From: Octopus sinensis | Taxonomy: Eukaryota | Length of the DNA stretch: 64,000 bases | Direction of reading: 5' to 3' | Assembly (NCBI RefSeq): GCF_006345805.1 | Contig: NC_043003.1 | Location: forward strand, 14,260,001-14,324,000 | Shown here: one piece after another, positions 17,493-60,337 of the stretch | Layout of the letters: the number at the start of each line of letters is the position of its first letter | Position numbering within the stretch: the first letter of the stretch is position 1 | Made by a program: the position numbers and the translations under genes | The notes under the pieces: generated by a model | Databases searched by the model: none | Seen by the model: the letters and a program-made list of their open reading frames with translations, nothing else | Told to the model about the DNA's origin: nothing

Positions 17493-17630
17493 TTATTTTG
17501 TATTTAAAGGGGAAAATGCTGACAGATACTTTGAAGTTTTGTGTATGTAACCTTCATCAGACAGTCTGATGAGGACAACACAACAAAATCTTCAAAGTAA
17601 CTGTCAACCGTTTTCTTATAAAAATAAAAT
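17493..17630. repeat. Palindrome centred on CATCAGAC-A-GTCTGATG with back-to-back decayed hammerhead cores
   Basis: Arms TGACAGATACTTTGAAG... / ...CTTCAAAGTAACTGTCA; CTGATGA on both strands; GAAA decayed to AAAA. Confidence 0.65.
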
Positions 17631-17918
17631 ATGTATTTGCGTCTATGTGGACATTATATGTATGGATATGTATATATATGTGTATATATAGTTGAATCAA
17701 ATAAACAATCAGTTAAAAAAAAAATGAATAATAAAATTAGTGGACAAGTGGACGTACACAAGAAATGTATTAGTTTGACACTCAGTGAAAAAAATAGAGT
17801 TTAATGTTTCGAGCATAGCTCTTTGTCGGAAAGGAGAAAGCGAAATATCTAAAAGAAGGAAAAGAAATCACCAATAGCACATGTATGGTTACATTGCTGA
17901 ATATATACGAGTGTGTAA

Positions 17919-18140
17919 GGTGGCGAACTGGCCGAAACGTTAGCATGCCGGGCAAAATGCTTAGTGGTATTTCGTCTGCCGCTACGTTCTGAGTTCAAAT
18001 TTCGCCAAGGTCGACTTTGCCTTTCATCCTTTTTGGGTCTATAAACAAAGTAACAGTTTCGCACTGGGGTCAATGTAATCGACTTAATCCCTTTGTCTGT
18101 CCCCTCTATGTTTAACCCCTTGTGGGTAGTAAAGAAATAT
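17919..18140 (+). mobile_element. SINE family C
   Basis: GGTGGCGAACTGGCCGAAACGTTAGC head and GTAAAGAAATA tail. Confidence 0.85.
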
Positions 18141-18518
18141 ATATACGAGTGTATGTGTGTGATTGGCTTCTTCAGTTTCTGTCTACCAATTTCACAAACA
18201 AGGTATTGGTTGGCTTTTGGGTTATGGCATAGGGCACCAGTCTTCAGCATCCACAAAGTAAGATTGAACCGTTAACTATGTGGTTTTGAGGTGAAATTCG
18301 AAACCACATAGCCATGCCTGCATCTAATATTTATAAACAATATATTACATTTAGATATATATCCACACATACATACACACAGACATATATATTTGCACAC
18401 ACAGACATATAATATATATATATATATATTATGTATATATATATAATATATATATATTATGTATATATATATATTATGTATATATATATGTATGTATATA
18501 ATATGTGTGTGTGTGTAT

Positions 18519-18561
<43 letters not shown>

Positions 18562-18596
18562 CTTACATATAATATATACATTTACTTTATATACAT

Positions 18597-18790
18597 ACAT
18601 TAATCCCTCGACAATTGCAGGTGTTACGTTCCAACCCCCCAACCCCCGCAATGGGTGAAAATCCGCAAAGTAGAAACAGTGTTGTTCTGTATATTGTTTT
18701 TTTGATTTTTAGAATTTCTGTATATTTATTTTATTATAAATGCAAAACAACACCACAGAGGAATTGACGTAAGCTTAAATAATAACCTCA
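18597..18790 (+). mobile_element. Tigger/pogo-like MITE left end
   Basis: TAATCCCTCGACAATTGCAGGTGTTACGTTCC resembles Tigger-type TIRs; partner end not found. Confidence 0.45.
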
Positions 18791-18879
18791 AAATGGTGAG
18801 TGATTACTGTATATATTATATATACATACACACATACTATATACAATATACATACACACATACTATATACAATATACAT

Positions 18880-18932
<53 letters not shown>

Positions 18933-18978
18933 CATATGTAAAAACATGGATACATTTATAACATATACAGACATAGAA

Positions 18979-19024
<46 letters not shown>

Positions 19025-19133
19025 GCAAATGCTATACGGACATAAACTGTGTATTGATAGCCACCTGGAAAAGATGTTTTCCTAGGGCTAAACAACAGTA
19101 ACATCGTCCTTTATAGGACTGCTACATTCTACT

Positions 19134-19166
<33 letters not shown>

Positions 19167-19168
<2 letters not shown>

Positions 19169-19558
19169 TTTACTCTTTTACTTGTTTCAGTCATTTGACT
19201 GCGGCCATGCTGGAGCACCGCCTTTAATCGAACAACTTGACCCCAAGACTTATTCTTTTGTAAGCCCAGTACTTATTCTATCGGTCTCTTTTGCCGAACC
19301 GCTAAGTAATGGGACATAAACACACCAGCATCGGTTGTCAAGCAATGCTAGGGGACAAACACAGACACACACACGCATAGATATATACATATATACGACG
19401 GGCTTCTTTCAGTTTCCGTCTACCAAATCCACTCATAAGGCTCTGGTCGGCCCAAGGCTATAGTAGAAGACACTTGCCCAAGGTGCCACGCAGTGGAACT
19501 GAACCCGGAACCATGTGGTTGGTAGACAAGCTACTTACCACACAGCCACTCCTGCGCC
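19167..19558 (-). mobile_element. SINE family A, full length
   Basis: As above. Confidence 0.9.
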
Positions 19559-19844
19559 TATATATTATGGATATATATATATATATATTAGTATTATATC
19601 ATCGTCATTTAACATCTGTCTTCCAAATACGCACACATAAACACGTGTATCTTTATACCCTCCACCATTTGACAACCGATGTTGGCATGTTTACATCTCC
19701 ATAACTTAGCAGTTTGGCAAAAGAGACTGACAGAGTAAGTGCCAGGCTTTAAAAAAAAATAATTACTGAAATCAGTTCGCGTGACTAAAATTCTTCAAGG
19801 TATAGCCCCAACACGGCTAGAGTCCAGTGACTGAAACACGTTAA

Positions 19845-20367
19845 CCCGTAAAGCGCTGGGACTTGCCCTTACATAGTATGGACTGCTGAGCACATTTTAT
19901 GAAAATGAGACTACCATACACACATAAAAAAAAATAGTTACAATATCTTCTTAGTATATAACTAGCAGTATAACCCAGCCTTGCCCGGGATTAAATTACG
20001 ATTATTAAGCTAATCAAGTTCTTTATTTCAAACCAAACTAAGTAATATCGACCCTCAACAAAACACTTTTTTACGCGGCGTAAAATAAAAACAAAACTCT
20101 TTCGCACCCAAAGTAATGTGAGTGAGAGAGAGAGGGGGGGAGAAAAGTGAACGATTCAAAATAAATAAATGATAAGTTTTTACATCATCTGAAAAGTGAT
20201 TAGTTGAACTATTAGTTCTCTTGCATTCCGGTGGGTATTGGGAGCATTTGAGTGACATTAGAACCCCAACAAACCGCCCATAAATTAAATGCATCTATCT
20301 GGGCCACGATCGTGGCCTGTGGACCTATGCCTGACAGCCACGATCGTGGCCCGTCGCGCTTTATGTG
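19845..20367. mobile_element. piggyBac-like MITE with TTAA target duplication, carrying a Helitron-like 3' end
   Basis: TTAA|CCCGTAAAGCGC ... GCGCTTTATGTG|TTAA; two GCCACGATCGTGGC palindromes near the right end; splits a SINE tail; minus-strand hairpin+CTAG at ~19961-19990. Confidence 0.7.
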
Positions 20368-21054
20368 TTAAAGATAAAAACACACAAATACAAACAGATA
20401 ACTAGAAGGTAAAGTTTCAAATCGATACATCCTGATGAAGCAAAAGAACAAAATTTTCTGACATTTAGCCAAAATGTGTTGTATAATATAATCTATACCC
20501 AATCTCAGAATAAAGCAATATTATTCTAGTATCATATATATATCTATATACGGAGATTAAGCTTTCCTATATATCTGAATATGATTTCACTAAGGCAACA
20601 ACAAAATTATGAATCATTTCTTTGTCATCGTCTGTTTGTTGTTTGGCCATCGGTCAGCCCAGATGGAGCAAACCTTAAAATATTTCGATCAATCGCAATT
20701 ATACTCGTCTGCATTTATTCCACACGGTCTTGGACTGCGGTCATGCTGGGCACCGCTTCAGAGGGTTTGGTTGAACAAATCGAGCCTGGTAATTATTTCT
20801 TTTTAATCTGGTACTTATTCTATCGGGATCTCTTGCCAAACCACTAAGTTGTAGGGATGTAAACAAACCAACACTGTTTATCAAGCTATGATGGGGAACA
20901 AACACAGCCACACACACATACTTTATACACACATATATACATATATTCACAGGTATACATGTTTATATATACACGTATATATAAATACATATATATATAT
21001 ATACACATATATATATATACACATACATACATATATACATATATGTACATCATC

Positions 21055-21116
<62 letters not shown>

Positions 21117-21924
21117 AATCATGCATATATTATATATGTGTATGTATGTATGTATGTATGTATAAATGTATACAACAGGCTTCTTTAAGTTTCTGTCTAG
21201 CAAATTCACTCGTAAGGCCTTAGTTAACCTGGGGCTATATAATAGAAGACACTTGCCCAAGGTGCCACACAGTGGGACACAACCCACGACCACATGGTTG
21301 GGAAGCTACCCACACTACCACACCAGCACCTTTGTTTTTTTTTAAGACAATGTAAAATGTGTGATATGAAAGGAATTTGGCAGCTAATCTGTCATTCCTT
21401 CTTTGTATTCTTATTTTACAGACTTTAATCACAGGACTGCAGCCATACTGGGGCACACTATCTTGAAGGGCTTTAGCCAAACAAATCTACCGCAGTACTT
21501 ACTTACTTCACTGGGTTCTTTTGCCGAACAGTTAAGTTACAGGTATGTAAACAAACCGACACCGGTTGCCAAGTGGTGATGGAAGGGACACCGACACATA
21601 CACATACATGGTTTTTAGTTTATACGCACTCTATTCTCGATGTTGAAAACCTTTCGCTAACAACTTCGATTTTCATCAATCAGTGACCGACAGAATAATA
21701 CATCGATTATGAATACGAACATTACATATATATATACACAAATATATACATATATATAGCCTACGGGTAGCTTCTACTTTTTCTGTCAAAGAGGTGTTTT
21801 TTAATCCCCAGATCTCCACACATTTATAGTTTTTACGTGCAACAGGGCCATCGTTCCCAGGAAGAATTATTTCACCTTCTCTCCAAGCTTATAAATTCTC
21901 ATGACGTCAATTATATATTTATTA

Positions 21925-22001
21925 GATAGATAGAAAGATAGATAGATAGAAAGAGATAGATGGATAGATAGATGGATGGATGGATGGATAGATATCGAGT
22001 G

Positions 22002-22077
<76 letters not shown>

Positions 22078-22120
22078 AAGAGACAGATGGATTGATGGAT
22101 GGATAGATATCGAGTGTAGG

Positions 22121-22160
<40 letters not shown>

Positions 22161-22370
22161 AGAGACAGATGGATGGATGGATGGATAGATATCGAGTGTA
22201 GATAGATAGATAGATAGATATATAGATAGATAGATAGATAGATAGAAGATAGATAGATAGATATAGATAGATAGAAAGAGACAGATGGATGGATGGATGA
22301 TGGATGGATGGATGGATGGATGGATGGATGGATGGATGGATGGATGGATGGATGGATGATGGATAGATAT

Positions 22371-22411
<41 letters not shown>

Positions 22412-22597
22412 AGATAGATATAGATAAATAGATGATAGATAGATAGATAAATAATAGATAGATAGATAGATATAGATAAATAGATATAGATATAGATAAT
22501 AGATAGATAGATAGATAATAGATAGATAATAGATGATAGATAGATAGATAGATAGATAGATAAATGATAGATAGATAGATAGATAGAGATAGATAGA

Positions 22598-22653
<56 letters not shown>

Positions 22654-22690
22654 TAGATAGATAGATAGATATAGATAATAGATAGATAAT
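21925..22690. repeat. (AGAT)n/(GGAT)n tetranucleotide array
   Basis: Direct reading; GATATCGAGTGTAG recurs three times. Confidence 0.95.
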
Positions 22691-22927
22691 GTATGTACGT
22701 ATCGCCAGATAAAATCAGAAATCACTTTTAAAGTAATGCCCGCTTTTTTTTTTTCATTTAAATATACCAGAAAATAAAATTATACAAAAATAGGGTAATT
22801 ATTCATAAAAATAAACAATAAAGTTATTTTAAGATGATGGAAATATCTCATCTCTTACGTAATCACATGTACAAAAAGAAAACAAATCCAGAGAATGGAT
22901 GCGTGTGTGTGTATACATATATAAATG

Positions 22928-22982
<55 letters not shown>

Positions 22983-23102
22983 CATAGCAATAACTATTGA
23001 TGACTAGATAGGTGAGACAGACTGCTGCCAGCTCTGCAGACCCAAACGGTAGCCCCAGCATGGCCGCGGCCTTCGGACTAAAACATTTTTAAGGATTTAA
23101 GG

Positions 23103-23155
<53 letters not shown>

Positions 23156-23162
<7 letters not shown>

Positions 23163-23255: not shown

Positions 23256-23381
23256 AATATTACTTAAGTTTACCGAGAAACGGTCCTTTTTCATGCCGAA
23301 TTCTACTTGGTGAAATTATTGATTACTAGTTAATTAATTAATTTTACCCTTTGTTATTATTGATTATATACATATACATAT

Positions 23382-30291: not shown

Positions 30292-30600
30292 TGTTATATA
30301 AATGTGCGTGTGTGTAGGCTCAAAACGTTAAAAACATCTATTTTCCTGAACATCAAACTAATACACCTTGTTTTCATTCCTCACTTGTTTCTGTCTTTTG
30401 TATATGTACAATTTTGAACTATATATATATTTATATATATATTCGACGGGCTTCTTTCAGTTTCCGCCAACAAAATCCATTCACTAGGCTCAGGTCAACT
30501 TGAGGCTATAGTAGAAGACACTTGCCTGTGGTGCCACACAGTAGGACTGAACCCTCAACCATGTGGTTGGGAAGCAAGCTTCTTACCACCCAGCCACTCC

Positions 30601-31031: not shown

Positions 31032-31171
31032 ATTATTATGTACTTTATTGTGATCTAGATAAATGTTTTATCATATACTTTATTTTTTTCGATATGGTGT
31101 GATTTACGTCTTTCATTGTTTGAATTACATAATAGAGGTTTTTCTCTAATTCATATAAATATATATATATT

Positions 31172-31757
31172 AGAAGAAATGAGGTACACAGAAATCTGGA
31201 TGGTTTTATGTTTACAGATATTTATTAATATGTCACGTTTTTATAAATCATATATTAGTGCTTGCGTCCACTCTAGTGGAGTCTTCAGATTGAACTTTTT
31301 CAGGAAATTTGTCTCTTTTTATAGTATTATTGAGTGTGTAGGGGTGGAGAGAGATATAAGATAGTACAAGAGGGTGAGGAATGGGTTTGCCATTACTAAA
31401 AGCCAAGAATCACTTCCTAATGGAAGAACTGACCAGCTGCAAAGATGTCAACACATTTTTTTCTTCTTTCTCTCTTCCTTCTTCTTTTTCATTGACACTT
31501 CATTCAGATACAAAAGCATACACACACTCTCTCTCTCTCACTTTCTCCCCATTCCTCACCCTCTTGTACTATCTTATATATCTCTCCACCCCTACACACT
31601 CAATATAAAAAGAGACAAATTCCCTGAAAAAAATCAATCTGAAGACTCCACTAGAGTGGACACAAGCGCTAATATATGATTTATAAAAACATGTGACATA
31701 TTAATAAAAATCTGTAAATATAAAACCAGCCAGATTTCTGAGTACCTTATTTCTTCT
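31172..31757. repeat. Long fold-back (~210-bp arms) with a hammerhead-like core in each arm; Penelope-like terminus
   Basis: 31172-31385 pairs with 31548-31757; each arm has CTGAAGA-cTCCAC-taga-GTGGAc-(G/A)CAA-GC(G/A)C-TA. Confidence 0.85.
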
Positions 31758-32331
31758 CATATATACCTGTACATCATCTTCAAACCTTCTAATTGCAATG
31801 CGATTAACTTATTTATTGTCTTAAATGAGTGAAGGTAAAGAAATATTTTACCGTTAATTTATAATACAAATAAGAAAATGGAGAAACAATTTAGTTTGTT
31901 CATCAACTTTCGGATATTAGAATGTTGAATTATTTATTCTTTTAACAAAATGAGAACCTTAATAGCATATATATGTATCTTATATATATATATAATATAA
32001 TATATATACATATATATACAAATATATACATATATATGTATATATGTCTGCATGTATGTATATTCATTTTATTTATACATGTGATGGATGACGTAGCGTC
32101 ACATATGTAACTAACACAGATTTCGAAACAACTGTCAACAAATAGAATAAACAACTCTTCTCATTTCATTTCTCTTATCTGGCCAAAATATGTATATATA
32201 TATTTATGTATGTATATAGTAGATGTATAGTATATGTATGTGTATATATATATATATATATATAGTGTATATCTATGTCTAGACATACAAACATGGTAAA
32301 TTTACTCTATAGAAAATATAAATGATAAACA

Positions 32332-32374
32332 ACCTTAATCAATTTTCGACCCTTCGTGGGGTTGCATCAGAGGT
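32332..32374 (-). ncRNA. Minimal type I hammerhead ribozyme motif (A9 to C variant)
   Basis: acct-CTGATGC-aaccc-cacgaa-gggtc-GAAA-attgat-TA-aggt; stems I and II pair; helix III is a decayed ATCGAT palindrome. Confidence 0.6.
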
Positions 32375-32474
32375 GTCTATACCACTTGACCAATCCCAGA
32401 GAATGCTGCAACCGATCTGTTTACAAACACAACACACACACACACACATATATATATTTGGATACGGTATACCT

Positions 32475-34139: not shown

Positions 34140-34660
34140 CACACACACACTATATATATATATATACACACACGCATGCATACATATACATACATAAACA
34201 GACACACACACAAATATATGTGTGTGTGTATATATATATATACGAGCCTAGAGTTTATTTATTTATATATATATATATAGATATATGTATATACGAGTCT
34301 AGGGTTTATATATATATATTTCAACACACGCACATATGCATATGTATACATACATAAAAACAGACACACACACAAATATATGTGTGTGTGTGTATATATA
34401 TATATATACGAGCCTAGAGTTTATTTATATATATATAAATATATGTATATACGAGCCTAGGGTTTATATATATATATATTTACACACACACCCACATGCA
34501 TCTGTATACATACATAAACACAGACACACACACAAATACATGTGTGTATATATATATATATATATATACGAGCCTAGAGTTTATTTATATATATATAGAT
34601 ATATGTATATACGAGCCTAGGATTTATATATATATATAATCACACACGCACGATGTATAT
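34140..34660. repeat. Higher-order minisatellite, ~3 units with paired ATACGAGCCTAG motifs
   Basis: ACGAG(C/T)CTAG(A/G)(G/A)TTTA occurs six times, in pairs, at ~160-170-bp period. Confidence 0.8.
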
Positions 34661-35513
34661 ATGAGCTGAACAGATAAAAAGAAACTTCAGTTACCAAGTA
34701 TATGTGTGTGTGTACGTATTTATATATATATCTATATATATATAATATATATATATATCATATATATGTATGTATATAATATATATATGTGTGTGTGTGT
34801 GTGTGTGTAATCAGGGAGCTTTAATCTTTGAATATAAGGCGGATGAAATTTTTTTCCTGTTTTTTTTTCTTTAAGCGGAATAAATTAATGAATACATATC
34901 GATTTTTTTTTCTGAAATATTAAGCAATTATTAATAAATCAATATTTCCCAGATTTTAAAAAGTATTGATGAAATTTGTAAAATGAAACGGCAGTTGTAT
35001 TGCTTTATGTACGCCTGTATATATATATATATTTATATATATATTCATAAATATAATTTATTTATTTTGAAGGGACAAACCCCTCTGGCTTTCTTCCAGT
35101 GCATTTTATATGGCTATCGTTTAAGCTGTCCTCAATCCCTTATACATACCGTATTCGCTACAAATGTACTTCCTTGTCCTTAGTGAGTGCATGTTTTTCG
35201 ATGGTTTGCGTGTGTGTTTTAATTACGAGAGCTAATGTATATATATGCGTGTGTGTATAAATAGACGGCCGCGAAAATAGATAACACAGAAAAATGGTAA
35301 AATAAGCTGGCGTACCTAGAGACACCGTAAATAGCAACACACTGTGCGTGTGTGCCTATTAATATACATACATATATATCTATATACATACATCAAATAT
35401 GTATGTATGTATGTATATATATATATAACATACATTCATACATATTACATACATTATACTCATGTAACTATGGAATGAAGTATTTTATACATCACTAAAT
35501 AATATATGCATTA

Positions 35514-35720: not shown

Positions 35721-36030
35721 GTGGAGGCGCAATGGCCCAGTGGTTAGGGTAGCGGATTCGCGGTCGGAGGATCGCAGTTTCGACTCCCAGACCGGGCGTT
35801 GTGTGTGTGTTTATTGAGCGAAAACACCTAAAAGTTCCACGAAGCTCCGGCAGGGAGTTGTGGCGACCCCTGTTGTACTCTTTCGCCACAACTTTCTCTC
35901 GTTCTTTCTTCCTGTTTCTTGAGTAACGCTGCGATGGTCTGGCGTCTCGTCCAGCTGGGGGGAACACATACGCCATAAAAACCGGGAAACCGGGCCCATG
36001 AATCTGGCTAAGCTTGAAAAGGGTGCATAA
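35721..36030 (+). mobile_element. SINE family B (GTGGAGGCGCAATGGCCCAGTGG head)
   Basis: A/B boxes; head shared with 39559, 48455-48608 (-) and 63216. Confidence 0.85.
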
Positions 36031-36131
36031 ATATATATATCTATATATTAATTTTTGTTTTTATTTTCGGTAAATAATAACAGGAATTTTACATTTATAC
36101 TTTTGTAGAGTATAAATGTATTATTCTTGAT

Positions 36132-36166
36132 AGTGACTTCGAAGTTTCGGCCAGCATCGTCGGACT
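36132..36166 (-). ncRNA. Minimal type I hammerhead ribozyme motif (U4 to C variant)
   Basis: agt-CCGACGA-tgctggcc-GAAA-cttcgaag-TC-act; perfect palindromic helix III ACTTCGAAGT; GUC cleavage triplet. Confidence 0.6.
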
Positions 36167-37398
36167 TGTTATGTTAAATGCTTGTTTCAGTCATTAGACC
36201 CCAGTGCATATTTTTAAGCCTGGTACTCATTTTATCGAACTATTTTGCCGAACGGCTATGTTGTGGGAATATAAACAAACCAATACCAGTTGTGGTGCGG
36301 AACAAACAAACACACGCGCACACACACTGTGCATTCTGAGTTCAAATCCAGCCTCCTGTCACTGACACTGACAAGGGTAAGCTTGTGTATATTTCAGCAC
36401 ATTAAGCCAGCGTCGAGAGAACGCAGAGGGGATGTTCAAAATACAATACTCTATAAATTAACGCTGTTCGCACATAAAATTCACACACTATTGGCTTCAA
36501 ATTTTGGCACAAGGCCAACAATTTAGGGAACAGCGGTAAGTCGATTACATCGATCCCACTGCCCGAGTTGTTCTTATTTTATCAACCCCTAGGCCTCACC
36601 AAGTGACTGAGGCTTTGGGAAATATGCCGTGCGTGAGAAGACCCGGCAAGCCAAATGAGACCATAATCTCGTGGCCTATGCCAGGGGTGTAAACCAGCCC
36701 ACTTATGCGTACCTTTTCCTGCTTTGGACACTAAAACTCTGCTTGCGAAGACCTGTTGAGGCAACTGAAATCAAAATCAAATTCGATGACTGGCGTCCGT
36801 GCTAGCAGGGTGCAAAGAGCACTATACGAGTGTGATCATTGACAGAGCAGCTAACTGGCTTCCGTGTCTGCGTCTTTGTGTCTCTGATTGTTCCCCATCA
36901 CTGCTTGACAACTAGTGTTGGTGTGTTTATGTCACCGCAACTTAGCAGTTCGGCAAAAGAGACTGATAGAATAAGTACTAGACTTAAGAAATAAACCCTG
37001 AGGTTGATTTGTTCAACTAAAACCCTTCAAGGCAGTGCTCCAGCATGGCCGCAGTCAAATTACTGAAACAAGTAAAACAATATATATATATATATATAAT
37101 ATAATAAAAGGGTAAATAATTTTTTCGATGGTTTTTCAGACAACCAACAATTATTTACCGGTAGATTTCGGTATGTAAATATGACTTTCGGCATCGAGAA
37201 CTTCTGTAGAGTTCAGTATATATAGTATACTACAGAAGTTCCCGACACTAAAACTTATATATTTATATATATATATATATAAATATATATTGTTGTATTT
37301 GGGGAAGGTCATGTTGCCAGTTTAGCCAGTGAAAACACATGCACTATATATTTGGTGTTATTTTGCTTCAGCTTTATTTTGTATTAATTGTATTTCAG

Positions 37399-37438
37399 CC
37401 AGAGTTCTTTCATCACACTTCTGTGACCTCATCAGTGG
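37399..37438 (-). ncRNA. Minimal type I hammerhead ribozyme motif
   Basis: cca-CTGATGA-g-gtcac-agaagt-gtgat-GAAA-gaac-TC-tgg; catalytic core letters intact. Confidence 0.55.
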
Positions 37439-37700
37439 TCCTTTGCTTTCTTCTTTCTTTTTTGTGTGTCTTTCCTTACTAATGATCAGCCATTTTGTAT
37501 TCCTATTGTATGTGCCTTTACTTGCGCATGCGTATGCCCCTGTGTGTGTCTATGTTTAGTAAGTGTGTGTGTGGGGGGTGCCTTTCCCTTGTTATATATA
37601 TATACAATTGTAGCATGGGAGGTGTTTATAAGCTGCAATTCTTTTTGTTTCAGCACACAATCTCAGATCAGGTCACTTGCTATGCAAGTACATCTCCATA

Positions 37701-37733
<33 letters not shown>

Positions 37734-38664
37734 TACTCAATCTGCATATGTGTGCATGTTACACATGCACTATACTTTATTATACATGAATAGGCATACA
37801 TAGTTATATACGTATATAGATGCTCATATATTTATATATATATCTATATTGTATGTTGATTTCAAATTTTGGCACAAGACCAGTAAGATTTGAGGGATTT
37901 GGGTAAGTCGATTATGCCAATTCCAGCGCTGAACTGGTACTTATTTTATCGACTCCGAAAGGGATGAAAAATAAGTCAACCTTTATGAAATTTGAACTCA
38001 GAATGTAAAGACAGACAAAATACCGCTAAGCATTTTGCCCAGCATGCTAACAATTCTGCTGGCTCACCTGCACACACACACACCACCACCACCCACATAC
38101 AGGAGTAGTATGAAAACCTAGTGCTCTGCAGAGATCAACTAAAGAAGAATATGTAAAAATAAAAAATCTTGGTTGTGCTCCAGCATGGCCGCAGGCACAT
38201 GCTAAAACGAATAAAATAATGTGTGCATATATATATATATATAGTTTAAATTTATAGAAAAATAAAAGATGAAGACAGGTGTATGAACAACAAGCAAGTG
38301 TATTAGTTTGACACTCAGGAAAATGAAAAAATCTTTTTGTATTTCGAGTCTATGCTCTTCAACAGAAAGGAACAAGAGAAAATAAACAGAGAATGAAAAA
38401 AACCTTGTAGATTTCAGCAGTCCAGGTGTAACATATAAAGGCATATTTTTTTTCTTTGATGAAATTATGCTCATAGCATATTAATGCAAATTTAATGCAT
38501 AAATTTGTAATTTAATTATTGAGTACTAATGGAAACGGCTGTAAGAAGTAAAGATTACAAATTTCTTAATAAATAATTATTAACTTTCTACTCACCATTT
38601 CCTTTTCATTTAACTGGATAAGAACTATATATATATATGTGTATGTTGTATAATGTATGTATAT

Positions 38665-39916: not shown

Positions 39917-40655
39917 TATACATAAGTATATATAATATATATATATATTATATATATGCTTATATAGGTGTTTTTGCAAGATCTCTGATGTGAAATCATT
40001 TATTTCAACAGATGTTATATTTCGGAATAGTCATTTTTTTTTCTTTTTTTGTTTCTTTTACCAAATAAACACACACACTATATATTTCTTCTTCACTCCA
40101 GCTCTATTATTGTTTTTATCTTCTTGTCCGTTGTCTGGAAATATTTTGTCATACATCCTGTGACCTCTTTGGCGACTCTTTCTCGAAAGAATGGACTAAA
40201 CAACAGGAGACATATGGGGTGGAGAGTCATTGAAGAGGTCACAGGACATGTGATAAAAAATATTTCCAGACAATGGACAATAAGATAAGAACAATAATAA
40301 ACAAGTGAAGAACAAATATACAGTTTGTATGTTTATCTGATAAGAAAAAGGAAAAAAAAAAAACCACCATCCTGAAATATAACAATACATGTGTGTGTGT
40401 GTGTGTGTATGTGTGTGTGTGCTATTCTTGTATTCTTTTACTTGTTTCAGTCATTTGACTGTGGCCATGCTGGAGCACTGCCTTTAGTCAAACAAATTAA
40501 CCCCAGGACTCATTCTTTGTAAGCCTAGTACTTATTACTCTATCGGTGTCTTTTGCCGAACTACTAGGTTACAGGGATGTAAACACGCCAACATCAGTTG
40601 TCAAGCAATGGTGGGAGGACAAAGACAGACACACAAATATATATATATATATATA

Positions 40656-40707
40656 GCAAAAACTGTCTGATGAACGGCAACGAGAAACTCAGAGTAACAG
40701 ATTTTGT
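40656..40707 (+). ncRNA. Minimal type I hammerhead ribozyme in a Penelope-like terminal fragment (40656-40805)
   Basis: gcaaaa-a-ctgt-CTGATGA-acg-gcaa-cga-GAAA-ctcagag-TA-acag-a-ttttgt; intact core, GNRA-capped stem II, GUA triplet; AATAAA ~20 nt downstream; inserted in the (TA)n of a SINE A. Confidence 0.75.
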
Positions 40708-41189
40708 TGAATTTTCTGCTGCTTAAAATAAAGCATATTACTCTACCACTGGTATTTGAGTACTCTTTTTTCCACCTTGTTTCACATTTATGTGTTTACT
40801 CCGGTATATATATATATATAAAGATGAGCTTCTTTCAGTTTCCGTCTACCAAATCCACTCACAAGGCTTTGGTTGGCCTGAGGGTATAGTGGAAGACACT
40901 TGCCCAAAGTGCTTTGCAGTGGGACTGAACCCAGAACCATGTAGTTGGGAAGCAAGTTACTTACCACACAGCCACATAAATATAAATAAATATATATATA
41001 TATGTATATACAACAGCCCTCTTCCAGTTTCTCTCTACCAAATCCACTCACAAGGCTTTGGTCGACCTGAGGTTGTAGTAAAAGACAGTTGCCCAAGGTG
41101 CCACACAGTGTTCATATATATTACATACAATCATATATTTATATATCCCATTTTCTACATCTCAAATAATGACCCAGTACTATAACAGC

Positions 41190-42754: not shown

Positions 42755-43185
42755 AGGATCAGAATCGAAATCGATCAATGGAAATTGCAGATGTGTTACC
42801 AGTGCCGGTGGCATGTAAGAGAACCTTCCGTTTCGCGACCGTTGCCAGCACCGCCCCGACTGGCCTCGTGCGGATGGCACGTAAAAAGCACCATCTGTTC
42901 GTGTCCGTTGCCAGCCTCGCCTGGCCCTCGTGCCGGTGGCACATAAAAAGCACCATCCGTTCGTGGCCGTTTGCCAGCTCTGTCTGGCACATGTGTGGGT
43001 GGCACGTAAAAAGCACCCACTACACTCACGGAGTGGTTGGCGTTAGGAAGGGCATCCAGCCGTAGAAACACTGCCAGATTTGACTGGGCCTGATGAAGCC
43101 TTCTGGCTTCACAGACCCCAGTAGAACCGTCCAACCCATGCTAGCATGGAAAACGGACGCTAAACAATGATGATGATGATGATGA
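42755..43185 (+). mobile_element. Family D repeat, young copy with internal tandem GGCACGTAAAAAGCACC units
   Basis: Ends CCATGCTAGCATGGAAAACGGACGCTAAAC(GAT)n. Confidence 0.8.
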
Positions 43186-46386: not shown

Positions 46387-46653
46387 ATAATACAGACATA
46401 TGCACAGATCGTGTAAACATTAGTCAGAGTATCTTTCGTACATCAGCGAATAACCAAACCCTTTGAATTCGGTGATCAGGACACAATGACATGGGAATAG
46501 GGTTCGGAAAGGAGCAGGTTGGGGTGGAGGGGCTTTCATGGCAATTTATAACTCATCGGAAGCTGGTGCTGGTTTATTTATTAAAGGAGAACCGACAGTA
46601 TGAAGTCAAGTTTGTATACAGACATACGTGTTTGTATACATATATATACATAC

Positions 46654-51662: not shown

Positions 51663-52095
51663 GTGTGTCTGTCAAGACCTACCAAAAACTGAGCAAGTAT
51701 AAAGATCATGAAATAGATATTAGCAAAATGTGGAACCTGAAAACTAAAACAATACCTGTTGTCATAGGTGCCCTGGGAATGATAGCAAAAGGGGCTGATT
51801 GCTACCTAGCTCAGATACCAGGAAATCCCAAAATGGCAGAAAATCAAAAGATAGTGCTCATGGGAACTGCCCATATCCTACATAAAATACTGTCTATGTA
51901 ATCTCAAATTTTTAAACAAACATATAATTTTCTTATGGTTTCTTAAACATTCTCTAGAACAACACTATGTACAAAACCAAATGTATGGCACCCTAGGCAT
52001 AACACCAACATGAACTTCCAACTTGTTGTCTCTTGAGGTCTCTGGGTGAGTCTTGGAGTCAACTTGTACAAATGCAAAGCAAAAGTCAAACATAA

Positions 52096-52097
<2 letters not shown>
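51663..52097 (+). mobile_element. 5'-truncated R4/Dong-like LINE, second subfamily
   Basis: ORF 51665..51901 KLSKYKDHEIDISKMWNLKTKTIPVVIGALG; different 3'UTR; (TAA)n on both sides. Confidence 0.85.
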
Positions 52098-52146
<49 letters not shown>

Positions 52147-52148
<2 letters not shown>

Positions 52149-53072
52149 CTCTGCACAGCAAATATGTGGCTCGTAGCAAACAAGCTGATGTTGACCAGAA
52201 GCAAACCCATCAGTGGCTACGGAGCTCAGGGCTAAAAGCAGAGAGCGAAGGTTTCATCCTGGCTGCTCAAGATCAAAGCCTATTAACCCGGAACTACCAG
52301 GCCAATGTGATGAAAAATGGAGCAGACCCAAAATGCCGATTCTGCAATGACATGATTGAAACAGTGGACCACCTAATCTCTGTATGTAAAGTCTTAGCAC
52401 CAGTGGAGTATAAATTAAGACATGACAGAGTTGGCCAATATCTACACTGGCTAATAAGTCGGCATTACAATATCAAAACTACCGACAAGTGGTATAATCA
52501 CCACCCTGAAGCTGTAACTGAAGCAGAAAATGTAACGATTCTGTGGGACTTACCAGTACATACAGACCGAACCATCAAAGCAATAAAACCGGATATTGTT
52601 GTGAAAGACCAAAACAATAAAGTTTGCTTATTGATCGACATGAGCATCCCTGTGATCATAATATCTCGGCGAAAGAGGTTGACAAGCTCAGAAAATATAA
52701 AGACCTGCTCATTGAATTGAGAAAATGTGGCATCTCAAGGCGGTTACAATACCAGTGATCGTAGGAGCACTAGGAATGATCAAGAAGGGAACCGAAAATT
52801 ATATGAGAATGATCCCTGGCTTACCATCCCTGCAAGAAGTGCAAAAGATTGTCTTAAATGGTACATCACACGTATTGAGAAGAGCATTGTCGATGTGAGA
52901 ACTATTACTACCCATGTATTTTAATTTAACTTTATTTCTATAAAAAAAAAAATGAACGAACTAGTGAGTTTAGTTTAATGGCCTACCAATGTATACTATG
53001 AGTTTCTTTGCCCTAGGAGTCGGGAAGACACTCGGCAAGAAATGGAAGCAAATTTGAAAGAAGAAAAAAAAG
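52147..53072 (+). mobile_element. 5'-truncated R4/Dong-like LINE with Zn knuckle and restriction-like endonuclease
   Basis: AAQDQ...CRFC...ETVDHLISVC...RHD...KPDIVV...LID; frameshift at ~52658; stop at 52896-52898; flanked by (TAA)n. Confidence 0.92.
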
Positions 53073-54070: not shown

Positions 54071-54076
54071 TTTTTG

Positions 54077-54914
54077 TACTGTACCTGCCTTTCCACGCCA
54101 TGTTATTTGTTAACATGAAAAGAAAGAGGAATTCGTAAGATATCACTTTGAAGCTGAAAGTTGTTGAACATGCAAAGTTGCATTTGAATCGAGCTGCAGA
54201 AAGAAAATTTGGAGTCTCAGAAAAAAAATGGTCAGGGATTAGTGTTTGAAAGAGGAGAAAATGAAATACGTTGACATCAAGTTGTTAAAGAAAATTAGGC
54301 GCAGGAGTGGCTGTGTGGTAAGTAGCTTGCTAACCAACCACATGGTTCCGGGTTCAGTCCCACTGTGTGGCATCTTGGGCAAGTGTCTTCTGCTATAGCC
54401 CTGGGCTGACAAATGCCTTGTGAGTAGATTTGGTAGGCAGAAACTGAAAGAAGCCTGTTGTATATATGTATATATATAAATGTATGTGTGTCAGCGGTTC
54501 AGCAAAAGAGACAAATAGAATAAGTACTGGGCTTACAAAGAATAAGTCCCAGGGTCGATTTGCTCGACTAAAGGCGGTGCTCCAGCATGGCCGCAGTCAA
54601 ATGACTGAAAAAAGTAAAAGATAAAAGATAGGAATGAGTCTCAATGAGAAAATGGAGACTATTTTGAGAGACTGGGCGACTGAATTACTTACAAATGGAC
54701 TTGTCATGAGAAACATCATTAGATTGCAAGCTCTCCAAGTGACTAAAGAACATGGTATATCCGACTGAAAGCTCGGTTATCGAACAGCAGCTATGTCAGC
54801 ACAATTCCTAATCAAACTTTGCTCTCCAACATCAAAAAAGATCCCCATTTGAATCTTGTAAGTCGGAGGTGCGTCTTATCAGCAAGGGTGTTTTATAGTC
54901 AAGTATATACGGTA
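54077..54914 (+). mobile_element. pogo (POGK-like) transposon remnant with SINE A insertion (54298-54630)
   Basis: MKRKRNS*DITLKLKVVEHAK...AAERKFGVSEK (Brinker-type DBD); ILRDWATEL...IIRLQAL (CENP-B HTH); right end ...TATACGG|TA. Confidence 0.8.
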
Positions 54915-56578
54915 CGTCACAATAAAGCCTTGAATCCATTGTTCTTTCAATAAATGTGAGTCCTCCGACACCAGCTGCATTCATGCATTCCTAAAGTATA
55001 ACACTTCCGCCGCTATGTTTCACGGTAGGCACGGTGTATTTGTCGCTACTATCTTCACCTGGTCATCGTCGTACTAGTTTAATACCATCTGACCCAAAAG
55101 AGTGGATTTTAGTCTCGTCAGAAAAAAGAATTTTATTCCAAAACTCCTTCCCCTTACTCACATAGATTTCGGCAAAAAAGAAAAAGACAACTGGTAGTAC
55201 CTATTTCTTTACTACCCACAAGAATCTAAACGCAGAGAGGACAAACAAGGACAGACAAACGGATTAAGTCGATTATATCGACCTCAGTGCATAACTGGTA
55301 CTTATTTACTCAACCCCGAAAGGATGAAAGGCAAAGTTAACCTCGGCAGAATTTGAACTCAGAACGTAGCGGCAGACGAAATACTGCCAAGCATTTCGCC
55401 CAGCGTGCTAACAATTCTGCCAGCTTCCTACCTTCAACTGGTAATACCTGGTAACGAGGAGAGGCTTCCTATGAAAAATGCGTCCATGAAGACCACACTG
55501 GTCCAAACTTCGGTGAACTATTTGGGCGGATACTCTCTTTCCACTAGCAAAGATACTTCTTGGACGAACGATGAAGCTGTACAATGCCCGTCATCCATCA
55601 CGCAATGTTGGATGTAGTAAATATCAGGAATCTCTCTCTATATATAAACGGCAAAATGTCTGTGTGTGTGTCCTTTATACAAATCCACAATCTTTCAGTT
55701 AGAGGGCTCGCACTTTCTATGGTCATTCGAAACCGTCCAAGGGTGGTCGTGCACATTTTTACATTTCCCCAGTCACCCGACAAAGCCATTAAAAAAATCA
55801 ATAGAAGTGACTTTTTTGTGAATTTTCTATCCAAAACCCAATCAAAATGCCCGAAACTTGATATGCCAATTGAATGCCAGCTAGCTGTATGTGATTGGTC
55901 GGAGATTTGGACAGTACTCGCGTGTATGTGCACACGCACGCAGCTGTATATGCATGCACTAGCACTATGACCCGGTGTTGCCAGGTCATAGTGCAAGTAT
56001 CAGTTAAAAGAGGACAACATGGGCAATGTTTATTGCTTAGCCGTTCAGTAGCTTTGTACTTCTGAATTACCTTGGCAACTGTGTTTGCTCTAATATGTAT
56101 TCGTTTGTTGATTAACTTGTATCCTAAAACATTCTTGTGCAAATTAAAAATAATTTTATTCAAACCTTCAGAGATTTCTTTTCCTTTTGGTGCCATTTTA
56201 ATCACAATGAAGATTTTCACCACTGAACACAAATCAGAATTCCTGCAGATGCAATAACAATGACCAGTGCAGAAATGCCAGGAGAAATAATTTATTAGAA
56301 TTGAAATTATCAGCAATATCTGAATTTATTTTAAAAAAAAAAGTGGATAGAATATTGAATATAGCAAATTTCCTTTAGGGCGTAAATATTCTTGTAATGT
56401 TTTTTAAATTAATATTTTCATTCATATCTTTGAAAATGTTTATTGTTTGTATAATGTTTGCATGTATAATATGTTTTATTCAGTATAAATCTCGTTTGAT
56501 TTCTTTCGATATTATCAGAGTAATTGCAATTTTACTGAAAATTTTTAGGGGTGTACATACTTCTGTGAGATACTGTAT
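54915..56578 (-). mobile_element. Tc1-family transposon remnant interrupted by SINE C and a Helitron-like element
   Basis: TIR TA|CAGTATCTCACAGAAGTATGTACACCC; MAPKGKEISEGL...GYKLI; WNKILFSDETKI...PTVKHSGGSVI. Confidence 0.92.
55631..55998 (+). mobile_element. Helitron-like non-autonomous element nested in Tc1
   Basis: A|TCTCTCTCTATATATAAACG start; terminal hairpin GCACTATGACC...GGTCATAGTGC then AAGT (decayed CTAG|T). Confidence 0.65.
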
Positions 56579-57132
56579 ATATATATATAGCATTGCTTGA
56601 CAACCGATGCTGGTGTGTTTATGTCCCCGTAACTTAGCAGTTCGGCAAAACAGAACAATAGAACAAGTACTGGGCTTACAAAAGAATAAGTCCCGGGGTC
56701 GAGTTGCTCGATTAAAGGCGGTGCTCCAGCATGGCCGCAGTCAAATGACTGAAACAAGTAAAAGAGTAAAAAAAAGAAAAGAGTAAAGAGTATATGTGTG
56801 TGCTGGCTGGCTGGCCCTGTTCTGGATGCCTGGCTGGCCCGGCCTCGGTTTTCTGGCTGGAAACTAGCCTAGGCTGGATGCCTGGCCCTGTTTTGGATGC
56901 CTGGCTGGCCCGGCTTAATAGTTGCCTAATAGTGGTTTTATCTCTAATTTAATTTATATTTATACTGTGAAATTTGATTTAATCCTAAATCTAATTTTTT
57001 CCTGTAAGTTTGGATATACTCCCTAATATTATTATTATATATGATATATATATAAATATATTAAGTTAGACATGGCCTGGAACAATCTTTGGTCGAAACA
57101 TATCTAAGTTTTATATATATATATGATATATG

Positions 57133-57184
<52 letters not shown>

Positions 57185-57696
57185 ATATATATATATATAT
57201 AATATATATGATATATATATATAGTTAACCAACGTTCACCTATAAAAAACTGCCATCCTGATTTTGTCTCCAATATATGTACATGAAGAGTGATACTGAC
57301 AACGTTGTGGCTGGCACACTGTTTCTCAGACAGCATTTACTTTCCAACAGCATCTAAAACCATTTCTAAAATCAATGTCTACCTATGTTGACATAACTTG
57401 ATAGAGGTCAGCATGCTCAGTAACAGTCTGGAAATTTTCGGTGATAGTTCCACGTGAAAATTTCGTCTTTAAGTACCACCCTTATCACGACAAGCACATT
57501 TTCTAACATCTTCAGTGAACTATCACACTCTTGGAAATTAGGATTCTCAACTTGACAGGAACCAATTTTATTTGATCGTCAACGAAAGGCAGTCGATACT
57601 AAACAAGATGTTATCATGTTAAAATGCATAAGTATACAACTCCACATATAAATCTAGGTGTATTTGTCAATCATGAAGACAGACTTACACGTGTAC

Positions 57697-58230
57697 ATGT
57701 CCTTATTGTTGGCTTGCTATTTGCTTTGAATTTGTTGTTCATGCATATTGATGGCTATTGATCGCATTACTCGCTGACCTATGGCCATTCCCACCTCGAT
57801 AATTCATCGCATACAATAAATAATAGACATATTCTGACTCACTAGCTCGTCAACATAGGTATGTGCAATCAACCATTGCTAGAGATAGCATCGCCCTATT
57901 TCAACCGACCTGAGATTTACTTATCGTTTCGGATAGGTCCAATGCTGCACACCAAGAAAATTTGGTGATCGCTTTGGGGGGGGGGGGCTAAAATCTAGAG
58001 GCGTCTGAAGAAAAATAGCCATGGTACCCTTCTATCATTGAAGAAATGATGTTGTTGTTTCAGCAGTGGAAGAATTTTGGATCATCACTAACTGAACTAT
58101 CAACATGATAGTACACTGTATATTATGAGCTACTGCTTGTGGCTGTATTCAGTAAGCATAATTGGGAAAAGAAGACGAACAATGCAAGGCTGATGTATGA
58201 GGTACTGGTTCTGTTTTCGGATGCGAACAT
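57697..58230. repeat. 0.53-kb direct repeat, copy 1
   Basis: Aligns with 60416-60963. Confidence 0.95.
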
Positions 58231-59181
58231 TTTAAAGAACGACCTTCATCAGTTGTTGCCTGTTTTTCTAGTCTCGTATTTCGAGCATTTAACAACAATA
58301 TACGCTTTCTATAAAACAGTTGCTCCTGCAAAGCAAATTAAATAAAATTCAGGCTTTTGATGAGGGTCAAAATTGGTAACACAAACAGGACAGTGAAAAC
58401 AGAGAGGAAGGGCTGCTAAGCCTAAACGAGGTTGTGGTGGCGAAGGCGAAAATGAAGCAGGGACAGGAGACAGACAAAAACACGTCTTCCTTGTTCCAGC
58501 TACAACGGAGAGAAGGAAAGAAACACAAGATAGGAGAAGAAAGAAAGATGGCCGATGGTCACGTGGGAGCCACGTGAGCAAGGATGGAGGAGCGAGAGAG
58601 AGAGAGTGACAGAGTAATAGAATAGAATAGTGGGAGAAGAGGAGGTAAAAGAATAAGAGAGAGAAAGGGAGAAAAACGAAAGGGTAAAATGATCGTATAG
58701 AGGTCACATAAGAATTACTAAGACAGACCACTTTCCGTTTCTATCTGCCAAATCCACTCACAAGGCTTTGGTCAGCCCAAGGCTATAGTAGAAGACATTA
58801 AGATCAAAATAACAGAGTTCCAACAGAATTCTATGGTTTGGTAAACATTTCCATCCTCATTTGAAAACTTCTTCCATAATCAAAGAATTTGTACCACCAT
58901 CAATACTCCATGGTACATTATCGTGCAGTAATGAAGCAGGGATTCGAAACTGAACCTCATACTTGAGAAGCAAGCTTCTTAACTACACAACCACACACCT
59001 GCTGAAGTATATTGTTGGATTATGTTGCAGTTGCTAAACTGAGACATTAGCATTTCTGTATGTTAGTGACGAACTGGAAGAGCAAGCTTTCAGCACTGCA
59101 TGAATGGATAAATAATTTATTCACATAGAATTCAATAGTCTGATACCATAGGTTTCGTGCAAATATATTCATACCCATTCA

Positions 59182-59271
59182 ATCAGAATTTGAATAATGG
59201 ATGATGACTCTGGTATTTTAGCTCTTGCCACTTAAAATGGTGAAGTCATCATCTATTATTCAATTTCCGAT
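59182..59271. ncRNA. Candidate pri-miRNA-like hairpin
   Basis: 20-bp stem (59190-59209 / 59244-59263, one G-U) plus basal and apical extensions, in unique sequence. Confidence 0.35.
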
Positions 59272-59727
59272 CAGACTAACATATGAATTCTCTTAAAATG
59301 AAAATAGACACACACACACACACACGCTTGATATATATATATTCTTTAATATATATATATTCTTTCTCTGTCTCCCCTTCTTTGGACTTTTTCCTTTTTC
59401 TATATTTCTGACGAAGAGGCTCCACTCAAAACATGAAATCCTCTTTCTTTTCTTTCCTTTCCTTTCCTGAGCATCCGATAACACTGTACTTATTCCACTT
59501 CCTCACATTGATGTTTTTTCTTGCTTGTTCATGTTTGGATTAGCTATATAAATATATGTGTGTGTGTAGTGTTAGGCTGCCAAGATAGATGATGGTCACT
59601 CAAGACAAATACCGCAGTATTGCAGTGTTCATACAATATATCTACGGTTATGAAGGATGTAAAGATTGCTATTTGGTACTGCTATAGTTTTTGTCGCTAA
59701 TATCTCATGTGTGTGTGTGTATATTTA

Positions 59728-59764
<37 letters not shown>

Positions 59765-59768
<4 letters not shown>

Positions 59769-60095
59769 GTGATTCCTGTGCTGGTGGTACGTAAAAAGCA
59801 CCATCAGAACGTGGCCGATGCCAGCGCTGCCTTGACTGGCTTCTGTGCTGGTGGCACATAATAAGCACCAACCGATCATGGCCACTGCCAGCCTCCCCTG
59901 GCACCTGTGCTGGTGGCACGTAAAAAGCACCCACTACACTCACGGAGTGGTTAGCGTTAGGAAGGGCATCCAGCTGTAGAAACACTGCCAGATCAGACTG
60001 GAGCCTGATGCAGCATCCTGGCTTCCCAGGCCCCTGTCAAACCGTCCAACCCATGCTAGCATGGAAAATGGACGTTAAACGAGGATGATGATGAT
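59765..60095 (+). mobile_element. Family D repeat
   Basis: As above. Confidence 0.8.
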
Positions 60096-60337
60096 ATATA
60101 TATATGTATATGTATATCATTCCATACCTGACATCACTGAAGAGCACAGGGTTACATAATCGGTCTGTTACTTAACATTTCGTTGAACCCCTAATATGAA
60201 ACCAATTGGTAATGGATATATAATACTGTACACTTTGATTTTCATATATATATATATATATGTGTATATATATATATATATATAATATATATATATATAC
60301 ACATATATACATATATATACATATACATATATATACA

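What the first reader, a model, noticed from the sequence alone, without database searches (positions are those of the whole stretch)
17493..60215. About ten unrelated-looking short elements share one hammerhead architecture
Seen: the pattern stem I-C(T)GANGA-stem II-GAAA-palindrome-TH-stem I' recurs with different stem sequences at 17566 (both strands), 17799-17833 (-), ~31260-31290 (-) and ~31639-31670 (+), 32332-32374 (-), 36132-36166 (-), 37399-37438 (-), 38334-38368 (-), 40656-40707 (+), 59404-59439 (+) and 60137-60215 (+). Most adjoin (TA)n, and several have lost GAAA/ACGT through CpG-type changes. Inference: a diverse, high-density population of ribozyme-bearing non-autonomous retroelements (about one per 6 kb here) that standard repeat annotation would leave unclassified.
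Basis: partly seen in the sequence, partly recalled or inferred. Interest (0 to 1): 0.75.

Follow-up and report, generated by a model that had tools for sequence, protein, structure and literature searches.

The report
Penelope retroelement ends with variant hammerhead
These short repeats are the cut-off tail ends of several families of a known jumping gene (Penelope-like elements), each with a hammerhead self-cutting RNA motif that is mostly decayed here; one family of about 16,000 copies has U in place of a normally fixed A in the motif's core yet keeps the rest of it, so it is likely a working variant, though its cutting is untested.

Summary
The motifs are real: 12 hammerhead (HHR) units from 10 insertions. 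One is intact (40667), one nearly so (37435), one keeps its core but lost half of stem II (36163), and nine are broken, mostly at CpG. Stems covary across families (33/36 pairs in each stem vs 17 and 20 shuffled). They are not a separate non-autonomous class. Seven of nine families were walked upstream into RT/GIY-YIG coding sequence of Penelope-like elements (PLEs; Hydra- and Neptune-type), and the 40654-40808 copy is 98.7% identical to a full-length element's pLTR plus tail. Copies end at a fixed point on (TA)n and are 5'-truncated or folded back. This is published, including an octopus Hydra element, and this scan reported it on other DNA. The new point is site 38365: its Neptune-type lineage (about 16,000 copies, young full-length members with open frames) has CUGUNGA, not CUGANGA. 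U6 stands in 99 of 100 listed copies and A6 in none. The two free positions (7, 17) vary by subfamily while the other core bases stay fixed. I found no such variant in the papers I could search; one key paper was not available. Cleavage is untested.

The parts
17473..17566 (-). Family A, inverted arm of a fold-back insertion; HHR core at 17560, GAAA reads AAAA (broken)
   Evidence: inverted upstream copy in 9 of 11 family-A loci
17560..17651 (+). Family A, direct arm; core at 17566, 8-bp stem I, G12 lost (broken); the fold-back centre is the short palindrome in stem I; not linked to an ORF
17655..17901 (-). Old member of the B/G Neptune-type superfamily; core at 17829 reads CCGACAA (G8 lost at CpG), A6 present; ends on (TA)n
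30311..30442 (+).
31153..31385 (-). Family C, inverted arm; core at 31288; family state is GCAA instead of GAAA
31382..31793 (+). Family C, direct arm; core at 31639, G12 also lost; 3' end of a Neptune-type PLE
32222..32457 (-). Family D remnant; core at 32370 reads CTGATGC (A9 lost); family majority line is a complete HHR; not linked to an ORF
36027..36165 (-). Family E remnant; core at 36163 intact (U4C type), 5' arm of stem II mostly deleted; 3' end of a Hydra-type PLE
37256..37578 (-). Family F 3' end; core at 37435 intact, one G-C to G-U change in stem II; upstream RT plus C-terminal GIY-YIG in longer copies
38224..38417 (-). Family B (U6 lineage) 3' end; core at 38365 reads CTGTTGA as in the whole lineage; stem III decayed in this copy
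40066..40174 (+).
40654..40808 (+). Family P: intact type I HHR (core 40667) in the pLTR end plus tail of a Hydra-type PLE, flanked by (TA)n on both sides
   Evidence: 98.7% over 155 nt to the L057 element
59357..59557 (+). Family G 3' end (Neptune-type); core at 59408, G12 and ACGT lost at CpG; its subfamily has G at the cleavage position 17
60113..60245 (+). Family H 3' end (Hydra-type endonuclease upstream in L099/L219); core at 60137, base of stem II decayed, 3' arm of stem I deleted

Best explanation
The sites are short 3' ends (pseudo-LTR plus tail) of several autonomous Penelope-like retroelement families, likely left when reverse transcription primed at a nicked (TA)n target stopped early, and one lineage carries a U6 core variant that is likely still under selection as a hammerhead fold. 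Shown: family membership, fixed 3' end on (TA)n, variable 5' end, fold-backs, and the link to RT/GIY-YIG coding sequence for 7 of 9 families. Inferred from published PLE work: the element's protein nicks AT-rich DNA and starts reverse transcription inside the RNA about 65-140 nt behind the HHR, helped by a TA-like stretch at the donor's end point; fold-backs arise by template switching at short palindromes. Predicted: the HHR cannot form stem III alone and would cut only as a dimer of two pLTR copies in one long transcript, perhaps with protein help; solo copies lack that partner and decay at CpG. For U6, my odds: weak but real cleavage 0.5; fold kept for a non-cutting role (protein binding, RT positioning) 0.35; neutral 0.15.
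For: Full-length pLTR-ORF-pLTR for P (L057, L058: HHRs about 3,430 nt apart, about 725-codon frame with one stop each) and for B (L499, L501, L503: U6 HHR at both ends, open frames 876-1009 aa; RVT_1 E 1e-7 and 1e-8 and weak GIY-YIG in the two scanned). Upstream coding sequence for H, F, G, C and E. Fixed 3', ragged 5' ends. P has two 3' ends about 75 nt apart, like the two RT starts of PMC11167929. Stems I and II 33/36 paired across 9 family lines vs 17.3 and 19.6 shuffled (0 and 1 of 10,000); stem III folds as monomer hairpin in 1 of 10 and has negative self-dimer energy in 9 of 10. Genome counts vs reversed pattern: 11,390 vs 0, 16,111 vs 3,053, 16,880 vs 0. U6: 15,922 matches with the core left free; of 100 listed U6 99, C6 1, A6 0; N7 = U49/A23/G15/C13 (my tally); A6 form 119 of 10,375; 29 of 30 ORF-picked young copies read CTGTTG, one is damaged; 0 of 10 fixed core columns vary vs 38 of 92 tail columns, crude P 0.005.
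Against: Families A and D were not linked to an ORF. Pfam found nothing on the P-family ORF (0 of 4 pieces); its assignment rests on motifs and on likeness by eye to published Hydra proteins. Many P copies share one 5' end, which a non-autonomous unit would also show, though the query selected for it. No cleavage or expression data. For U6: the P value treats columns as independent, T-runs inflate tail variation, and the 30 loci were picked by fixed stems; changes at position 6 are reported to cut activity strongly in Mg2+ (A6C; PMC7151607, PMC3088659). Family C (GCAA in 96 of 100 listed) and the G17 subfamily (19 of 20) also spread with non-canonical cores, so cutting does not seem needed for spread.
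Confidence: 0.87

Rival explanations
1. The short units are non-autonomous retroelements in their own right (retrozyme- or SINE-like), transcribed as short or circular RNAs and copied in trans by PLE proteins.
For: Most copies are 130-300 nt; many P copies share one 5' end; A and D have no ORF link; A is a fold-back in 9 of 11 loci; earlier scan notes describe non-coding relatives in this genome (unchecked).
Against: 7 of 9 families run on into PLE ORFs; 5' ends form a continuum; no HHR array at any site, whereas tandem monomers define non-LTR retrozymes (PMC7229834).
Confidence: 0.1
2. The U6 motif is a dead ribozyme carried along neutrally; its apparent conservation reflects short branches or sampling.
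For: A6 is a conserved core base and A6C lowers activity (PMC7151607, PMC3088659); HHR mutants of a lizard PLE still insert in vitro (PMC11167929); families C and G17 spread with broken-looking cores.
Against: Copies range 70-99% in identity to L499; N7 takes all four bases along the subfamily tree and H17 alternates A/U while ten other core positions do not change; a tail-only sample gives U6 in 9 of 9 B-type copies with all four N7 bases.
Confidence: 0.15
3. The motifs are chance matches in AT-rich repetitive DNA.
For: Only 2 units pass a strict descriptor; with CTGANGA alone 7 of 100 shuffles reach the observed 1.
Against: Each site is a copy of a genomic family; stems covary across families; genome counts far exceed reversed-pattern controls.
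Confidence: 0.01

Closest known systems
Minimal type I hammerheads in the pLTRs of metazoan Penelope-like elements (Cervera and de la Pena 2014, PMC4209133; parts 1-2 of 4 read)
   Same: Many sequence families per genome, mostly single motifs tied to truncated PLEs, some in opposite-strand pairs 100-700 nt apart; palindromic stem III, extra base after A9, G10.1-C11.1.
   Different: The text read names a U3-A8 core variant, not U6; no cephalopod is named in the parts read.
Hydra-clade PLEs, including Hydra-1_Obim of Octopus bimaculoides and Hydra-2_aMil (Craig et al. 2021, PMC8557442; section 11, passages, supplement Files S1-S2 rows read)
   Same: RWK, DKT, CxCX5C linker, (TA)n targets, HHR about 100 nt from the 3' end. 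Family P has the same stem I as Hydra-2_aMil and a stem III differing only in the central base (by eye).
   Different: Family P is a different family from Hydra-1_Obim (other HHR), has a 1.1-kb 3' UTR, a 3.4-kb period and clear pLTRs.
Neptune-type PLEs (CX2-5CxxC linker plus CCHH endonuclease; features as given in PMC8557442 passages)
   Same: Families B, G, C: RT then C-terminal GIY-YIG with the linker, (TA)n targets, HHR in the pLTR.
   Different: Lineage B has CUGUNGA; family C has GCAA. No tree was built, so Neptune versus Nematis is not settled.
Natural A6C hammerhead of phage Bcep176 (PMC7151607 part 1 of 4 read; PMC3088659 passages)
   Same: A natural change at core position 6 in an otherwise canonical core; it still cuts, weakly in Mg2+ and well in Mn2+.
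   Different: Single phage example, C not U; here U6 is fixed across a radiation of about 16,000 copies.
Non-LTR retrozymes of animals (PMC7229834 passages; bioRxiv 10.64898/2026.07.22.740005 parts 1-2 of 5)
   Same: Type I HHR, short units, proposed PLE origin.
   Different: Retrozymes are non-coding tandem monomers; the units here are solo or fold-back ends of coding elements.

Membership tests
EN+ Penelope-like element | Single ORF with RT and C-terminal GIY-YIG endonuclease | tested here: met
   B: RVT_1 above cut-off, GIY-YIG E 0.007-0.008 below cut-off. P: RT and EN motifs read directly, no Pfam hit. Coding remnants for C, E, F, G, H; none found for A, D.
EN+ Penelope-like element | Direct pseudo-LTRs with an HHR flanking the ORF | tested here: met
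   L057, L058; L499, L501, L503, L504 of 6 fetched; 795-nt repeat at 96% in L499. Not examined for the other families.
EN+ Penelope-like element | 5'-truncated and inverted copies; optional tail | tested here: met
   inverted upstream copy in 0-9 loci per family; two 3' ends in P.
Hydra clade (family P; E and H by protein likeness) | RWK and DKT motifs, CxCX5C linker, CxxC and CxH around E and N, no CCHH | tested here: met
   Read in the P ORF; the linker is complete in L063 and has its second C changed in L057/L058.
Hydra clade (family P; E and H by protein likeness) | Generally shorter than 3 kb | tested here: not met
   Period about 3,430 nt; the paper gives this as a tendency, not a rule.
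Hydra clade (family P; E and H by protein likeness) | Placement in the RT tree | not tested
   Reference proteins were seen only as supplement text.
Neptune clade (B, G, C) | CX2-5CxxC linker, CCHH motif, DKG | tested here: met
   L499 translation; C remnants. These features are shared with Nematis.
Neptune clade (B, G, C) | Placement in the RT tree apart from Nematis | not tested
   No tree with references was built.
Type I hammerhead ribozyme | Stems I and II paired with covariation; palindromic stem III | tested here: met
   across 9 family lines (C left out of the count; B and G, A and E are related).
Type I hammerhead ribozyme | Core CUGANGA / GAAA / UH | tested here: inconclusive
   Met by the lines of P, H, F, D, G; E is U4C; not met by B (U6), C (GCAA), the A line (AAAA, decayed copies) and the G17 subfamily.
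Type I hammerhead ribozyme | Self-cleavage | not testable with these tools
   Only contigs were available.
Non-LTR retrozyme | Head-to-tail tandem monomers each with an HHR | tested here: not met
   No array over a site in the 150 TRF rows shown of 182 (list ends at 46388); single units seen in the printed contexts.
Non-LTR retrozyme | No coding capacity in the full element | tested here: not met
   7 of 9 families continue into PLE ORFs; open for A and D.
Non-LTR retrozyme | Circular monomer RNA | not testable with these tools
   No raw RNA reads offered.

The most novel reading that the evidence does not exclude
A young, autonomous Neptune-type PLE lineage with about 16,000 copies has run for its whole radiation on a CUGUNGA hammerhead: U6 is fixed, the two free positions vary, and the rest of the core is held by selection. 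It is a natural attenuated or protein/metal-dependent hammerhead, or a ribozyme fold kept for a non-cutting job, and with its A6 sister lineage (11,000+ copies) in the same genome it gives a matched pair for asking what PLE hammerheads are for.
Probability: 0.5. Interest if true: 0.6.

Novelty: new variant of a known kind. Interest (0 to 1): 0.4.

Why it matters
The dense hammerhead scatter is ordinary PLE debris and already described, also for octopus. The role of the hammerhead in PLEs is open: one in vitro study found it protein-assisted and not needed for insertion (PMC11167929). This genome holds natural experiments on that question. One successful lineage changed a normally fixed core base yet kept the rest, while family C and a G17 subfamily spread with cores that look broken. 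Comparing U6 with its A6 sister would show whether cutting, or only the fold, is selected, and it would add a core variant that descriptor searches demanding CUGANGA miss.

Tried and rejected
Rfam scan: no hammerhead among the 150 rows shown of 268; the top rows are microsatellite hits to miRNA models. Pfam on the P ORF: 0 of 4 pieces. PDB sequence search with the B ORF: 0 hits. Protein atlas: not answered, machine busy. Walking family D upstream reached about 200 nt beyond the query and no ORF. A pattern for an undecayed family A gave 0 matches. A linker-like remnant seen upstream of one C copy (L181/L417) was not shared by other copies and was dropped; the true C link came. Hits of PLE proteins downstream of or opposite to an HHR were treated as neighbours, not links. 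Sequencing runs: no RNA holder listed. Contigs of four runs laid on the P element and four on the U6 end show presence only; no change was listed at position 6 in runs under four organism codes, which I count as a weak hint only. Lunse et al. (RNA Biol, PLE hammerhead variants) was not held; it and its supplements may already list U6. Supplements of the bioRxiv retrozyme preprint were not seen. Searches for prior report of U6: by listing only; none showed it (one search gave one twister paper, not opened). Searches for octopus hammerheads. No host gene was recognised among 52 open frames of 110 aa or more (by eye).
Full report
Setting. The window is AT-rich animal DNA full of microsatellites in a 2.72-Gb genome. 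It is likely an octopus; that is my inference from recalled repeat types and from earlier scan notes, and no call names the organism. I recognised no host gene (by eye).

Observation. All listed sites carry a type I hammerhead (HHR) or its remnant: 12 units. A strict descriptor passes 2 (40667+, 36163-) against 0.08 in 100 local shuffles, none reaching 2; with CTGANGA alone it passes 1 against 0.07, and 7 of 100 shuffles reach that. Ten of 12 have (TA)4+ within 200 nt downstream against 30% of random positions. Two pairs are fold-backs of one insertion each (17560/17566; 31288/31639), so there are 10 insertions. Profile scans add two remnants (30311+, 40066+).

Families. I searched the genome with eight sites besides 40667; 17829 and the second arms of the two pairs were not searched on their own. 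Each query has relatives: first-look candidates P 263, E 76, H 1,065, F 2,265, D 517, A 11, B 3,007, C 1,822, G 2,204 (lower bounds, at most 40 scored). Majority lines from 11-30 loci per family restore complete HHR folds. Across nine lines (C left out; the genome's J family added), 33 of 36 base pairs form in stem I and 33 of 36 in stem II, against 17.3 and 19.6 when arms are shuffled between families (0 and 1 of 10,000 reach it); most columns show three or four pair types. B and G share stem II, and A and E are related, so the nine are not fully independent. Stem III is palindromic; it folds alone in 1 of 10 lines and has a negative self-dimer energy in 9 of 10. Against these lines, 40667 is intact, 37435 has one wobble, 36163 lost most of one stem II arm, and the other nine are broken, mostly at CpG. 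Genome-wide exact patterns give 11,390 vs 0 reversed-pattern matches for the G-type core and 16,111 vs 3,053 for a generic core.

What the families are. All have a fixed 3' end on (TA)n and ragged 5' ends. P: the window copy is 98.7% identical over 155 nt to the pLTR end plus tail of L057. L057 and L058, 2 of 8 stretches fetched, are pLTR-ORF-pLTR units with HHRs about 3,430 nt apart and one stop each in a frame of about 725 codons. The protein has RWK, DKT, a CxCX5C linker and CxxC/CxH, the features given for the Hydra clade (PMC8557442 section 11); Pfam did not recognise it. H has a Hydra-type endonuclease 700-900 nt upstream in 1 of 20 loci. E, after two walks, reaches Hydra-type RT/EN about 1.1-1.4 kb upstream (L507, L510, L513, L522). 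[quoted passage not shown] G follows a Neptune-type ORF (L294, L296, L297, L313). C does too (L532, L534, L543, L544). B does in 4 of 30 pattern-picked loci. A and D were not linked. So 7 of 9 families are ends of coding PLEs.

Mechanism. Shown: the anatomy above. P has two 3' end points about 75 nt apart, and in both P and B the donor continues there with TA-like letters. Inferred: the GIY-YIG nicks (TA)n, the nick primes reverse transcription inside the RNA just behind the HHR, and most copies stop early. This follows the in vitro work on a lizard PLE, where RT starts at two internal sites that define the tail, the HHR cuts only with protein, and HHR mutants still insert (PMC11167929, parts 1-2 of 4). 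Fold-back centres at 17563 and in L027 lie on short palindromes, which suggests template switching. Predicted: cutting needs a dimer of two pLTR HHRs (PMC4209133), so solo copies are likely inert.

The U6 lineage. Site 38365 reads CTGTTGA, and that is the lineage's state. With the core left free and stems fixed, 15,922 places match (0 control). Of the 100 listed, position 6 is U in 99, C in 1, A in none; N7 is U 49, A 23, G 15, C 13; position 17 is A or U, once C; each other core base is kept in 95-99 (my tally). The A6 form is 119 of 10,375, and the 15 looked at are scattered over subfamilies, as back-mutations would be. Picked by the endonuclease alone, 30 young copies (99.2-100% alike) give CTGTTG in 29 and one damaged copy. 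Full-length units with U6 at both ends and open frames of 876-1009 aa exist (L499, L501, L503) with RVT_1 and a weak GIY-YIG, a CX4CxxC linker and CCHH. N7 and position 17 follow the subfamily tree; copies range 70-99% in identity. In 30 loci, 38 of 92 tail columns vary and 0 of 10 fixed core columns do (crude P 0.005). A sample found by tail profiles alone in 289 of 504 loci (22 parsed, 10 not) gave U6 in 9 of 9 B-type copies, with all four N7 bases, and A6 in 8 of 9 G-type copies. Limits: columns are not independent, T-runs inflate tail variation, stems were fixed by the pattern. Against a cutting role: a natural A6C hammerhead is weak in Mg2+ though active in Mn2+ (PMC7151607 part 1; PMC3088659 passages). 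Family C has GCAA in 96 of 100 listed of 119, and the 59408 subfamily has G17 in 19 of 20, so spread does not seem to need a canonical core.

Comparison. PMC4209133 already describes thousands of diverse, mostly solo minimal HHRs from truncated PLEs in many animals. PMC8557442 lists Hydra-1_Obim of Octopus bimaculoides with (TA)n targets and its HHR. Non-LTR retrozymes are tandem non-coding monomers (PMC7229834 passages; preprint parts 1-2), which is not met here. PMC6765202 was read in passages. Earlier scan notes reached the same PLE reading on other DNA, and one reports a G3-C8 variant in this genome. I found no report of a U6 PLE hammerhead (listings only), but the paper on PLE hammerhead variants by Lunse et al. 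was not held.

Verdict. The general picture is known; the U6 lineage is a new variant of a known kind as far as I could check. Interest 0.4.

Noticed in passing
window 31153-31793; Family C, a Neptune-type PLE, has GCAA for GAAA in 96 of 100 listed copies (119 matches) and a weak stem I: a family that likely spread with a dead hammerhead.
   Followed up: partly
window 59357-59557; L195-L214: The subfamily nearest this copy has G at the cleavage position 17 in 19 of 20 loci, unlike the bulk of family G (U, C or A).
   Followed up: partly
L299-L328: Family G has the U4C core (CCGA) in 15 of 30 loci; family E has it in its majority line.
   Followed up: no
L329-L358: A further HHR family (J) dominates the generic genome-wide list, lies beside (AAT)n-like runs, has no copy in the window and was not linked to an ORF.
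   Followed up: partly
L311/L312; L440; L023; L294: Ends of different PLE subfamilies or families stack in the same TA run in the same orientation, a few hundred bases apart; in L294 a Neptune-type element sits directly behind a Hydra-type end.
   Followed up: no
window 40654-40808; The family P HHR matches coral Hydra-2_aMil in stem I and, but for the central base, in stem III (by eye); its stem II is only two pairs with a GNRA-type loop.
   Followed up: partly
window 17473-17651; L144-L154: Family A occurs as a fold-back in 9 of 11 loci, in the copies looked at centred on stem I; the relative family E in 8 of 20, while B, D and G show 0 of 20.
   Followed up: partly
window 6296-6730 (-), 8333-8743 (+), 52037-52720 (+); L229: Remnants that look by eye like a mariner transposase, an LTR-element integrase and a restriction-like non-LTR endonuclease; L229 holds a long Tc1-like transposase frame. 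Labels are recalled, not from a call.
   Followed up: no
window 12174-12620, 34151-34771, 42853-43017: Tandem arrays of 152, 160 and 62 nt without a hammerhead; a run of 100 N lies just before the 160-nt array.
   Followed up: no
window about 37180-37250: An imperfect inverted repeat with a TA-rich centre right behind the family F end.
   Followed up: no
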